Source of the DNA: Candidatus Helarchaeota ASGARD archaeon Hel_GB_B
GTDB taxonomy: Archaea; Asgardarchaeota; Lokiarchaeia; Helarchaeales; HEL-GB-B
Reading direction: 5' to 3'
Length of the DNA stretch: 32,000 nt
Assembly: GCA_005191425.1 (NCBI GenBank)
Contig: SUPR01000026.1
Coordinates: forward strand, 6,113-38,112
The number at the start of each line of letters is the position of its first letter. Position 1 is the first letter of the stretch. Positions 23,604 to 25,427 of the stretch are shown here, piece after piece. Both the position numbers and the translations under genes were made by a program. The notes beneath the pieces are model-generated. The model was not told where the DNA came from and searched no databases. It worked only from the letters and a program-made list of their open reading frames with translations.

Positions 23604-25427
23604 ATGAGTGGACCGTTAAAAAAAGGAAAATTACCAAAAGAATTAACAAGTCAAATGGAAGCAACAGCAGCTGCCTCTCAATATCTTCGACAGGCAGTAA
23701 AAAATATGCGTGATTTTATACCACTTGAAAAGCAACGCCGAATATATAAAGATCTTGAAAAAATGTTTGGTGTTGACCCGTTAAACCTAATTGATGAAAA
23801 AATGTATATGAGAAAAGGATTTAACCAGTCCGCAGCGATAATGAAAAATAAAGAATTAGGTAGATTAATCGCTTTAGACCGTTTTATTCCAATGTATGAC
23901 CCAAGTGTAAGTGAACCAATTGGTCATCAGCAATTATTTCCATATAAAATATCTGGTACTGACGAAATTGTATCTGGAAATTCTCTTCATTGTTTCAATA
24001 ATGTCGCGATGCAACAGTTATTTGATGATGTCAGACGCACTACAATTTTAAATCTTGATGTCCCTCACAAAGTGATTCAAGTGCGAGCAAGTAAAGAGGT
24101 TACACCTGAAACTATTGATCATTTTCTTAAAACTTTACAACATACAATTGCAGGTGGTACTGTTTCACTTGATCAGTTTGCTGATATAAATCCTGAATTA
24201 ACCAGAGATGCATATTGTAAAATAATCACGGGAAATGACGAATTAAGAGAATTAATTGATAATAGATTTTCTATTGACATTAATGCCGGCTTTCATAAAT
24301 CTAGAGCTGAAAAGTTAAAACATGCAATTGGTGATACAATACATTTAGTTGTTAGAGCACCAACAATACTAGTAAGAGCATTAGATAATTCAGTTGCTTT
24401 TAAATGGGCCGGAATCCAGAGTACTCTGGCATTTATCGTTGCTTATCGTTTGACCAAAGATTCTAACCTTGCAGATATTTCATATGCAACTCAATATGCT
24501 AATACCATAGCTCTTGGAGAACCTACATGGCAATCATTAGGCGGACATTATAATTCAATCGCCGGTATTCCTTTTGGCTATATAGCTGATATGTGTCAAG
24601 GTGATTCTCAATTACCTTTAAGACCTTTTATGGAAATTACAAATGAAGACCCCAAATTGTCTCGTGAATATTTAAAAAAGTCTATTGGGTGTGTAGGCGT
24701 TATCGCTCCCATTTTAACAAATTTTTGGGATGGATATCAACTGTCTGGTGGTGCCAATATCCTTGATAATGTTGTTATAGACACCTTTACTGGTGGTATA
24801 TTTGATGATTTTATTGATATTATGAATGATATGATGAACAAATATTTTTCGCGTATTGTCAAAATTGGCATGAATTTAATGCCAACTCGCTGGTATAATT
24901 TAAGATGGCCAGTTGAAAATATGGTAAATATTGTTATGGAAACAATGGAAAAATATCCATCGGCTATGGAAACTTTAAAACTAGGTATTCAAAAAATGTA
25001 TATAATTGGGCTCGTAGCAGGGATAATGGCATCTCTCTTATCTGGAAGTTCAACTGCTGGATTATGGGCTATTGATTATGCAATCAGTCTTTTAGTAAAA
25101 GAGGGTTGGTGCCGCACAGGGACAACTGGCTATGAAATTATCAATCAATTAGGGCTCCCTTATTCATGTTCATTACGTATTGAAGAAGGTGGATTACCAG
25201 AACTAAGAGGTATGAATAATTTTCATCAAATCCATTCAATTGGTAGCGCAGTCCCCAGAATCGCTGTATTATATGCAGCTGCACTAGCCCGGGGGGATGC
25301 TTGGGTATCAAGCCCTCTAATTAAAGTAGTTTTCAATGACCCTCACCTTTCATTTGATTTTAAAGACCCAATATCTGCTATTATTAAAGGTACAAAAGGT
25401 GAATTTAAACCTAAAGGAGAAAGTTAA
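23604..25427 (+). CDS. mcrA: Highly divergent methyl/alkyl-coenzyme M reductase alpha subunit-like protein
   Basis: LH..NN.AMQQLFDDVRRT, KEVTPETI, IITGNDE, IPFGYIADMCQ, ELRG and ARGDAW..SPLIKV.F.D..L.FDF; GGTGA SD overlapping the mcrG stop. Confidence 0.93.
   Translation: MSGPLKKGKLPKELTSQMEATAAASQYLRQAVKNMRDFIPLEKQRRIYKDLEKMFGVDPLNLIDEKMYMRKGFNQSAAIMKNKELGRLIALDRFIPMYDPSVSEPIGHQQLFPYKISGTDEIVSGNSLHCFNNVAMQQLFDDVRRTTILNLDVPHKVIQVRASKEVTPETIDHFLKTLQHTIAGGTVSLDQFADINPELTRDAYCKIITGNDELRELIDNRFSIDINAGFHKSRAEKLKHAIGDTIHLVVRAPTILVRALDNSVAFKWAGIQSTLAFIVAYRLTKDSNLADISYATQYANTIALGEPTWQSLGGHYNSIAGIPFGYIADMCQGDSQLPLRPFMEITNEDPKLSREYLKKSIGCVGVIAPILTNFWDGYQLSGGANILDNVVIDTFTGGIFDDFIDIMNDMMNKYFSRIVKIGMNLMPTRWYNLRWPVENMVNIVMETMEKYPSAMETLKLGIQKMYIIGLVAGIMASLLSGSSTAGLWAIDYAISLLVKEGWCRTGTTGYEIINQLGLPYSCSLRIEEGGLPELRGMNNFHQIHSIGSAVPRIAVLYAAALARGDAWVSSPLIKVVFNDPHLSFDFKDPISAIIKGTKGEFKPKGES

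What the first reader, a model, noticed from the sequence alone, without database searches (positions are those of the whole stretch)
24150..24179. McrA-like chain lacks the F430 nickel axial ligand (Gln147 -> Leu189)
Canonical PGAAVVQEHMVETHPAL aligns without gaps to AGGTVSLDQFADINPEL, putting Leu (ctt, 24168-24170) at the Gln147 position. The VVQEHM motif is, to my knowledge, conserved in both MCRs and ACRs. A Gln two residues later (Q191) might substitute only if the loop re-registers.
Basis: partly seen in the sequence, partly recalled or inferred. Interest (0 to 1): 0.85.

Follow-up and report, generated by a model that had tools for sequence, protein, structure and literature searches.

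The report
Leucine at MCR nickel-ligand position
An Asgard (Helarchaeales) archaeon encodes an intact relative of the methane/alkane-activating enzyme MCR with a non-binding leucine where a glutamine normally touches the nickel cofactor; the substitution is real and typical of a whole enzyme family, but a 2022 review already noted it and its effect is untested.

Summary
Codon CTT at 24168-24170 encodes Leu189 of a 607-aa McrA-like protein, and it aligns without gaps to the Ni-axial Gln147 of solved MCRs. The same codon stands in contigs of three further metagenome runs.

The motif is not conserved in all ACRs: ethyl-CoM reductase (7B1S) has Met there. Lemaire & Wagner 2022 (PMC9118554) already report Leu at this position in some Helarchaeota/Lokiarchaeota sequences.

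- Leu marks a monophyletic, Helarchaeales-only divergent ACR-like family (19 Leu, 6 Gln).
- The column switched between Gln and Leu at least three times and shows no other residue.
- The gene is under purifying selection (dN/dS about 0.1).
- The operon is B-G-A plus an SCP2-fold gene. The activation ATPase A2 is kept.
- The three genomes that carry only this family lack McrC/Mmp7, Mmp17 and Mmp3.
- Q191 does not co-vary with Leu189.

Best reading (about 0.5): the complex is a working ACR-like enzyme whose nickel cofactor has no protein lower ligand.

Main rival (about 0.3): the cofactor was lost or exchanged.

The scan's earlier notes on this feature come only from this same window.

The parts
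20481..21158 (+). Conserved upstream ORF (225 aa), no family hit
   Evidence: No Pfam or NCBIfam hit. It sits in the same place before the beta gene in clade A loci (58-59% identity) and, weakly (31%), in a clade B locus.
21391..22773 (+). MCR/ACR beta-like subunit (460 aa)
   Evidence: PF02783 and PF02241 both hit. TIGR03257 scores 383 bits, below its cut-off of 516. Tyr-beta367 is Phe and His-beta364 is kept.
22788..23597 (+). MCR/ACR gamma-like subunit (269 aa)
   Evidence: PF02240 hits. TIGR03259 scores 236 bits, above its cut-off of 172. The CoM-sulfonate Arg-gamma120 is kept, by alignment to 5a8k_C.
23604..25427 (+). MCR/ACR alpha-like subunit (607 aa, P0001)
   Evidence: PF02745 (2.7e-72) and PF02249 hit. 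The AF2 model has pLDDT 81.8 and matches McrA chains at TM 0.94, rmsd 2.4 A. TIGR03256 scores 361 bits, below its cut-off of 768. dN/dS against three orthologs is 0.07-0.10.
23604..23699 (+). N-terminal extension, residues 1-32 (MSGPLKKGKLP...MEATAAASQYLRQAV)
   Evidence: This is the most conserved stretch of the alpha chain within the divergent family (entropy 0.27-0.42 against a mean of 1.12). The motif is absent from canonical ACRs and MCRs.
24150..24200 (+). Loop AGGTVSLDQFADINPEL (residues 183-199), homolog of the F430/Ni-facing loop 141-157
   Evidence: Gap-free alignment to PGGAVVQEHMVEVHPAL. It is coil in the model, with pLDDT 86-87. Its conservation within the family is only average (57th percentile).
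24168..24170 (+). Leu189 codon CTT, at the Gln147 (Ni lower axial ligand) column
   Evidence: Sister orthologs have CAA or CAG (Gln) and clade B has TTA (Leu).
24174..24176 (+). Gln191 codon CAG (His149 column)
   Evidence: Gln in 22 of 24 family members regardless of residue 189; Lys in the G006 subgroup.
25439..25963 (+). SCP2-fold protein X (174 aa), fourth cistron
   Evidence: It lies directly downstream of the alpha gene in every divergent operon examined (66-87% identity, 81 invariant columns). Homologs at 36-43% identity lie downstream of canonical Helarchaeales ACR operons. The model (pLDDT 64.5) matches SCP2 structures in its top 30 Foldseek hits, TMt 0.57-0.65. The protein atlas gives an SCP2 lead.

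Best explanation
Leu189 is a true, selected family trait and not a lesion. The window encodes the alpha chain of a divergent alkyl-CoM-reductase-like complex found only in Helarchaeales. The operon holds beta, gamma, alpha and an SCP2-fold protein, and the ancestral form is followed by the activation ATPase A2. In this family the residue under the nickel of the tetrapyrrole site is Leu or, less often, Gln.

Most likely (inferred, not shown) the complex still holds an F430-type cofactor. The cofactor would have to be salvaged, because the genome has no tetrapyrrole pathway. Its Ni would have no protein-derived lower ligand, only water or nothing. This matches the state reported for active Ni(I) MCR, and it is one step beyond the weak Met ligand of ethyl-CoM reductase.

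Without the Gln oxygen, six-coordinate Ni(II) resting forms should be less stable. That fits the absence of the McrC/Mmp7-Mmp17-Mmp3 electron-injection module in genomes that carry only this family. The SCP2 partner and the rebuilt pocket point to a bulky hydrophobic substrate such as a long-chain alkane.
For: Shown:
- The homology of Leu189 to Gln147, and the same codon in three more metagenome runs.
- The divergent family is one clade (100/100, stem 0.68) with 19 Leu and 6 Gln. The ML tree and all 200 bootstrap trees need 4 Gln/Leu changes, and at least 3 are forced by well-supported branches. No third residue occurs.
- Across the superfamily only Gln, Met and Leu are seen at this column. 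These are similar-sized flexible side chains, as expected if the residue still packs under a macrocycle.
- dN/dS is 0.07-0.10, and the fold is kept at TM 0.94.
- A2 scores above the strict TIGR03269 cut-off in all 7 Helarchaeales genomes. It lies directly downstream of alpha-X in clade B, in the P0021 locus and in the G006 operon.
- The same SCP2 partner accompanies canonical Gln-bearing Helarchaeales ACRs.
- Gamma Arg120, beta His364, alpha Gly445 and Gln400 are kept.
- CODH/ACS and FTR are present for downstream oxidation.

From papers:
- Met is the axial ligand in ECR, and Leu is noted in Helarchaeota sequences taken from transcriptome assemblies (PMC9118554).
- Gln147 is replaced by water in Ni(I) MCR (10.1101/2025.04.26.650772).
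- The Gln loop swings 5.5 A away in the activation complex, where it contacts McrC (PMC12176620).
Against: - No cfbB/C/D/E, hemB or hemD is found in the own genome (93.7% complete). This does not discriminate, because Helarchaeales G001 and G003, which have canonical Gln-type ACRs, also lack them.
- McrC/Mmp7, Mmp17 and Mmp3 are absent from G000, G004 and G006.
- 51 of 123 columns that are near-invariant in canonical MCR/ACR are changed. Many lie in cofactor and coenzyme sites: A144, H149, M150, E152, R225K, K256Q, H257Y, R270S, R271L, F330I, G329N, F443T, Y444T, N481S and H484S.
- The Ni-facing loop is only averagely conserved inside the family.
- The alpha and beta chains fail the NCBIfam equivalog cut-offs.
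- No biochemical or expression data exist for this protein.
Confidence: 0.5

Rival explanations
1. The family no longer uses F430, or holds another cofactor. The MCR scaffold has been re-purposed for a different reaction on a hydrophobic substrate delivered by the SCP2 partner. Leu189 simply fills the space that the Ni ligand occupied.
For: Genomes that have only this family lack McrC/Mmp7, Mmp17 and Mmp3, and the own genome lacks every tetrapyrrole gene tested. The CoB phosphate clamp is largely gone in clade A (K267, Q297, Y298), and Tyr-beta367 is Phe. The Ni-facing loop is relaxed inside the family. Alpha and beta score far below the NCBIfam cut-offs.
Against: A2, whose only known role is MCR activation, is kept in all genomes and is co-operonic in three of the four subclades. 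The column accepts only Leu or Gln, with repeated returns to Gln. The CoM-sulfonate Arg-gamma120 and Gly445 are kept. Absence of tetrapyrrole genes also holds for Helarchaeales with canonical ACRs, which presumably salvage F430 and corrinoids. Clade B keeps more of the canonical site (R271, D450, and K256 as Arg), yet it always has Leu.
Confidence: 0.3
2. Another donor replaces Gln147. Candidates are Gln191 (His149 column), Thr186 (Ala144 column) holding a water, or a residue of the conserved N-terminal extension of the partner alpha chain. The Ni would then still have a protein-controlled lower ligand.
For: Residues 183-203 are extended coil in the model, so side chains i and i+2 can face the same way. 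Gln191 is nearly invariant in the family. A polar residue (T, S or N) stands at column 186 in 16 of 18 Leu-bearers, against 1 of 6 Gln-bearers, and the window has Thr where its Gln-bearing sisters have Ile or Val. The N-terminal extension is the most conserved segment and is specific to the family. In MCR the alpha N-terminus covers the route to the lower face of F430 (PMC12176620).
Against: Gln191 is present whether residue 189 is Leu or Gln, and it is Lys in the Leu-bearing G006 subgroup. There is no indel between the GG and P anchors, so the loop cannot re-register. The covariation at column 186 rests on essentially one independent contrast. Nothing was measured in three dimensions.
Confidence: 0.13
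3. The gene is decaying, or Leu189 is a sequencing or assembly artefact.
For: PGAP names the closest database copies 'hypothetical protein'.
Against: All three subunit genes and X are intact. dN/dS is about 0.1 over highly diverged orthologs. Leu is shared by 19 family members. The codon is identical in three more runs.
Confidence: 0.02

Closest known systems
Ethyl-coenzyme M reductase of Ca. Ethanoperedens thermophilum (PDB 7B1S; Hahn et al. 2021, as reviewed in PMC9118554)
   Same: It is an MCR-fold alkane-activating enzyme in which the canonical axial Gln is replaced ('gaimmeh'). This shows that Gln is not obligatory.
   Different: Its Met sulfur still coordinates Ni, whereas Leu has no donor atom. 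ECR keeps the CoB and CoM sites and carries dimethyl-F430. It belongs to a distant branch (P0063-like).
Canonical Helarchaeales / Methanoliparia-type long-chain ACRs (P0022-P0036; loci L002, L004, L008-L012)
   Same: They are the sister clade in the same order. They share the B-G-A order, the SCP2-like gene and A2 downstream, and an N-terminal extension. Tyr333 is already replaced by Val.
   Different: They keep AVAQEHM with Gln147 and His149, R225, K256, R271, D450 and H484. They co-occur with McrC/Mmp7 and Mmp17, and with Mmp3 in three of the four genomes. Identity to the window protein is 42-45%.
Leu-bearing Helarchaeota/Lokiarchaeota MCR homologues noted by Lemaire & Wagner 2022 (PMC9118554)
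   Same: Same taxon and same substitution. [quoted passage not shown]
   Different: The review gives one sentence and one figure. It offers no phylogeny of the trait, no genome context and no mechanism. I could not match its accessions to my clades.
Active Ni(I) state of canonical MCR (preprint 10.1101/2025.04.26.650772) and the MCR activation complex (PMC12176620)
   Same: In both, the Ni is not bound by Gln147: water takes its place, or the loop is displaced by 5.5 A. The Leu enzyme would resemble this state permanently.
   Different: In canonical MCR the Gln re-binds in Ni(II) states, and the loop docks McrC. Here neither the Gln nor McrC exists.

Membership tests
MCR/ACR alpha subunit superfamily (Pfam PF02745 + PF02249) | Both domains score above the gathering threshold, and the protein has the McrA fold | tested here: met
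   243.7 and 32.7 bits. Foldseek gives TM 0.94 and rmsd 2.4 A to 5n28_A and 1mro_A.
MCR/ACR complex | Adjacent beta, gamma and alpha genes | tested here: met
   21391-25427, with 6-14 bp spacers.
Coenzyme-B sulfoethylthiotransferase (NCBIfam equivalogs TIGR03256/7/9) | Score above the curated cut-offs | tested here: not met
   Alpha scores 361 against 768 and beta 383 against 516. Only gamma passes, at 236 against 172.
F430-dependent MCR/ACR active site | Side chain with an O or S donor (Gln, or Met in ECR) at alpha147 under the Ni | tested here: not met
   Leu189.
F430-dependent MCR/ACR active site | Bound Ni-F430 cofactor | not testable with these tools
   This needs purified protein. The genome has no cfb or hem genes, so any cofactor would have to be salvaged.
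F430-dependent MCR/ACR active site | CoB phosphate clamp R225 / K256 / (methyl-)H257 | tested here: not met
   K267 / Q297 / Y298.
F430-dependent MCR/ACR active site | CoM contacts: Arg-gamma120, Tyr-alpha333, Tyr-beta367 | tested here: inconclusive
   Arg-gamma120 is kept. Tyr-beta367 is Phe. Tyr333 (GFTQY motif) is N389 or V390, but it is also Val, Gly or Ala in canonical long-chain ACR-like sequences.
F430-dependent MCR/ACR active site | Gly445 (thioglycine site) | tested here: met
   G509 is present. Whether it is modified cannot be tested. TfuA was found in no Helarchaeales genome tested.
MCR activation system | A2 ATPase (TIGR03269) | tested here: met
   G000:C157:8115-9698 scores 678 bits against a cut-off of 517.
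MCR activation system | McrC/Mmp7, Mmp17 and Mmp3 | tested here: not met
   There are no hits in the own genome by profile search or by tblastn with the G005 proteins. The genome is 93.7% complete.
Divergent Helarchaeales ACR-like family (delimited in this report) | Placement in the 100/100 clade; N-terminal MSGPLKKGKLP...ASQYLR motif; H149Q; SCP2-fold gene after alpha | tested here: met

The most novel reading that the evidence does not exclude
This Helarchaeales family would be a naturally 'ligand-free' MCR-fold enzyme. It either runs nickel-tetrapyrrole chemistry with no protein axial ligand and without the McrC/Mmp7/Mmp17/Mmp3 reductive-activation machinery (A2 only), or it has dropped F430 altogether for new chemistry on SCP2-delivered hydrophobic substrates. 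Either way it would be a natural experiment on what the axial Gln and the activation complex are for.
Probability: 0.3. Interest if true: 0.8.

Novelty: already known. Interest (0 to 1): 0.45.

Why it matters
The axial Gln is treated as a fixed part of the MCR nickel site. There is now a family of about 25 known sequences, under purifying selection, that switches between Leu and Gln at this position. It also occurs in genomes without the known electron-injection module. Together these give enzymologists a natural test of how the lower ligand tunes the Ni(II)/Ni(I) couple and the need for ATP-driven activation. The question also bears on whether MCR-like genes in Asgard MAGs can be read as evidence of alkane oxidation. 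The substitution itself is already in print, so the value lies in the comparative context and not in the sighting.

Tried and rejected
- RNA evidence: no RNA holder was listed for the operon or for the alpha gene.
- Q191-to-Ni geometry: the structure tool returns no coordinates and none are laid in /data, so this was not measured.
- cfb/hemB absence as an argument against F430: rejected as a discriminator. Only 1 of 7 Helarchaeales genomes (G005) has CfbD, CfbE and HemB, and genomes with canonical Gln-type ACRs lack them too.
- ComA and TfuA: absent from every Helarchaeales genome tested, so uninformative.
- The search of protein-cluster representatives (search of protein representatives) added few full-length relatives.
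- The B12-radical-SAM gene at 29422-30846 as MgmA (the Gln400 methylase): it scores only 88 bits against a cut-off of 360, so it is not the equivalog. It is, however, syntenic in P0006's contig.
- The pseudogene and assembly-error readings are rejected.
- My own first site table mis-assigned two residues. Tyr333 was placed in WLGSYMSGG and R225 in MVVRACDGG. I corrected them to the GFTQY Tyr and the SRWSAMQ Arg by counting from Gly445, Gln400 and K256, and from the M. maripaludis numbering in PMC12176620.
- The PF04609 'McrC' hits of about 300 aa are Mmp7.
- Whether the window's Leu is ancestral or re-evolved stays open. Concatenated B+G+A+X places the window inside the Gln-bearing clade A (80/92), but the AU test does not reject monophyly of the Gln-bearers (p = 0.21).
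Full report
**1. What is in the sequence**

The window is AT-rich (about 28% GC) and archaeal (TFIIB at 10800-11759). Co-directional ORFs with 6-14 bp spacers encode homologs of the three MCR subunits. These are beta (21391-22773), gamma (22788-23597) and alpha (23604-25427). A 174-aa ORF follows at 25439-25963.

Residues 183-199 of the alpha chain read AGGTVSLDQFADINPEL, and Leu189 is ctt at 24168-24170. phmmer against every solved McrA (E down to 8e-90) aligns this stretch to PGGAVVQEHMVEVHPAL without a gap. MAFFT alignments agree. The invariant GG and P anchors are equally spaced in both, so the register is fixed.

Contigs from three other metagenome runs (hydrothermal vent and marine sediment) cover the codon unchanged. 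A second strain differs at 20 other positions of the gene.

**2. Where it comes from and who shares it**

The nearest database proteins (99% down to 51% identity) are from Candidatus Helarchaeota MAGs. Among 400 Asgard species genomes, only the 7 Helarchaeales genomes have any McrA-like gene, and all 7 have one. The window's own genome (3.54 Mb, 93.7% complete) has exactly one.

I built a careful ML tree with the column in question masked. It recovers a divergent family of 25 sequences (100/100 support, stem 0.68 substitutions per site). This family is sister to the canonical Helarchaeales/Methanoliparia-type ACRs (quick tree).

At the Gln147 column the family has 19 Leu and 6 Gln:
- Leu in clade B (11 sequences), the P0021/P0120-122 group, the G006 group and the window.
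- Gln in the window's four closest relatives (75-78% identity; IVSQDQF) and in P0118/P0119 (VIQGQK).

All canonical ACRs and MCRs in the set have Gln. P0063 and solved ethyl-CoM reductase 7B1S have Met.

The ML tree and all 200 bootstrap trees need four Gln/Leu changes, and well-supported branches alone force at least three. No third residue occurs at this column. The codons are CTT in the window, CAA or CAG in its sisters, and TTA in clade B.

Whether the window kept the ancestral Leu or re-evolved it from Gln is unresolved. A concatenated B+G+A+X tree nests it among the Gln-bearers (80/92), but the AU test does not reject the alternative (p = 0.21).

**3. It is a working gene**

Nei-Gojobori dN/dS of the alpha gene against three orthologs is 0.07-0.10, with dS saturated. 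The AF2 model (pLDDT 81.8, pTM 0.84) matches McrA chains at TM 0.94 and rmsd 2.4 A. Residues 183-203 are a confidently modelled coil.

**4. The rest of the site**

Of 123 columns that are at least 93% conserved in canonical MCR/ACR sequences, 72 are kept in the divergent family and 51 are changed. The window's residues at the named positions are these:

| Canonical (M. marburgensis numbering) | Window |
|---|---|
| A144 | T186 |
| Q147 | L189 |
| H149 | Q191 |
| M150 | F192 |
| E152 | D194 |
| R225 | K267 |
| K256 | Q297 |
| H257 | Y298 |
| R270 / R271 | S311 / L312 |
| F330 | I386 |
| Y333 | N389 or V390 |
| F443 / Y444 | T507 / T508 |
| D450 | N514 |
| C452 | L516 |
| N481 | S545 |
| H484 | S548 |

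Q230, Q400 and Gly445 are kept. Beta Tyr367 is Phe and His364 is kept. Gamma Arg120, which binds the CoM sulfonate, is kept.

- The active-site Phe330 and Tyr333 lie in the GFTQY motif, not in WLGSYMSGG. Tyr333 is already Val, Gly or Ala in canonical long-chain ACR-like sequences.
- The true Arg225 (SRWSAMQ) is Lys here.

Clade B is less derived than clade A: it keeps R271 and D450 and has Arg at K256. Yet it always has Leu at column 147.

**5. Does Q191 stand in for the ligand?**

The His149 column is Gln in 22 of 24 family members, whether residue 189 is Leu or Gln. It is Lys in the Leu-bearing G006 group. So Q191 is a family trait and not a compensation for Leu189.

One lead remains. Column 144 is polar (T, S or N) in 16 of 18 Leu-bearers and in 1 of 6 Gln-bearers. 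The window has Thr where its Gln-bearing sisters have Ile or Val. This rests on about one independent contrast.

Within the family the Ni-facing loop is only averagely conserved (57th percentile). The most conserved stretch of the whole chain is a family-specific N-terminal extension, MSGPLKKGKLP...MEATAxASQYLRQAV. I could not measure any distance to the Ni site, because no coordinates are returned.

**6. Genomic company**

The 174-aa ORF (X) lies directly after the alpha gene in every divergent operon examined. It is better conserved than alpha itself (66-87% identity, 81 invariant columns). Homologs at 36-43% identity follow canonical Helarchaeales ACR operons too. Its model, of moderate confidence, hits only SCP2-fold proteins at the top of Foldseek, and the protein atlas gives the same lead.

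The activation ATPase A2 scores above the strict TIGR03269 cut-off in all 7 genomes. It follows alpha-X directly in clade B (G002), in the P0021 locus and in G006. The ancestral order is therefore B-G-A-X-A2. In the window's genome A2 sits on another contig in unrelated company.

The three genomes that carry only a divergent complex are G000, its congener G004 (which has Gln) and G006, each 93-94% complete. They lack McrC/Mmp7, Mmp17 and Mmp3. Genomes that have canonical ACRs (G001, G003, G005), or likely have one (G002), carry these genes; Mmp3 was not found in the 82%-complete G003. tblastn of the G005 proteins against the own genome confirms the absence there.

CfbB/C/D/E, HemB and HemD are absent from the own genome. 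They are found only in G005, as a neat MgmA-CfbB-CfbC-CfbD-CfbE cluster with HemD two genes further on. This absence therefore does not separate the Leu-type from the Gln-type enzymes. CODH/ACS and FTR are present.

**7. What is known**

Lemaire & Wagner 2022 (PMC9118554) make three relevant statements:
- The axial Gln is Met in the ethyl-CoM reductase of Ca. Ethanoperedens and in one Ca. Syntrophoarchaeum homologue.
[quoted passage not shown] - These sequences, taken from transcriptome shotgun assemblies, show 'even more drastic substitutions' in cofactor and coenzyme contacts.

Two recent structural reports lower the barrier to a Leu enzyme being active. In Ni(I) MCR a water replaces Gln147 (preprint 10.1101/2025.04.26.650772). 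In the activation complex the Gln loop moves 5.5 A off the Ni and is gripped by McrC (PMC12176620). The very loop that docks McrC is the one that is rebuilt in a family whose genomes lack McrC.

**8. Reading**

I commit, at about 0.5, to this reading. The complex is a functional ACR-like enzyme that still holds a salvaged F430-type cofactor. The lower face of its Ni meets Leu, with water or nothing as the ligand. This would bias the site away from six-coordinate Ni(II) and go together with loss of the McrC/Mmp electron-injection module. A2 and the SCP2-fold partner are retained.

Shown are the homology, the family-wide Leu/Gln pattern, purifying selection, operon composition and gene presence or absence. 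Inferred are cofactor retention, the redox consequence and the substrate class.

The main rival (0.3) is loss or exchange of the cofactor with new chemistry. A substitute donor from Q191, T186 or the N-terminal extension gets 0.13. Decay or artefact is excluded.

**9. Verdict**

The feature is already in the literature, though unexplained. Interest is moderate. The scan's earlier notes on this feature come only from this same window, not from other DNA.

Noticed in passing
window 25439-25963 (+); also L018:2333-2857, L019:5197-5697(-), L021:7578-8156, L022:6474-7040: An SCP2-fold protein is a constant fourth gene of Helarchaeales ACR-type operons, divergent and canonical alike. In the divergent family it is better conserved than the alpha chain (81 invariant columns). 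I found no paper linking SCP2 to ACR operons in the library searched.
   Followed up: partly
window 23604-23699 (+): A family-specific N-terminal extension of the alpha chain (MSGPLKKGKLP...MEATAAASQYLRQAV) is the most conserved part of the protein within the divergent family. Its role is unknown. In MCR the alpha N-terminus covers the route to the lower face of F430.
   Followed up: partly
By counting from Gly445 and Gln400, it is the Tyr of GFTQY. The window has I386 for Phe330 and N389 or V390 for Tyr333. Loss of Tyr333 is shared with canonical long-chain ACR-like sequences, so it is not special to this protein.
   Followed up: yes
own genome G000 (all contigs): No hemB, hemD or cfbB-E was found. 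Yet the genome encodes CODH/ACS and several B12-binding radical SAM proteins (window 29422-30846; L017:5446-6909). The organism looks like a tetrapyrrole auxotroph that must salvage corrinoids, and F430 if it uses it.
   Followed up: partly
window 29422-30846 (+) and 26358-28880 (+): A B12-binding radical SAM gene and an NTP-transferase/phosphoglucomutase fusion gene keep their places downstream of the operon in P0006's 444-kb contig (80% identity each). The radical SAM protein is not the MgmA equivalog (88 bits against 360).
   Followed up: partly
G002:C226:310-2420: An A2 gene followed by an SCP2-like gene lies at the very start of a contig. It is probably the tail of a canonical ACR operon cut by the assembly, which would explain why G002 has McrC/Mmp genes but only a clade B alpha gene.
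   Followed up: no
L014 (G005:C12:5900-24900): G005 is the only Helarchaeales genome with a complete MgmA-CfbB-CfbC-CfbD-CfbE cluster, with HemD two genes further on. It is also the only one with HemB.
   Followed up: partly
window 15064-20053 (+): A ThiF/E1-like gene (18956-20053) and small ORFs upstream were flagged by other notes as a ubiquitin-like conjugation module. I saw only the ThiF Pfam hit.
   Followed up: no
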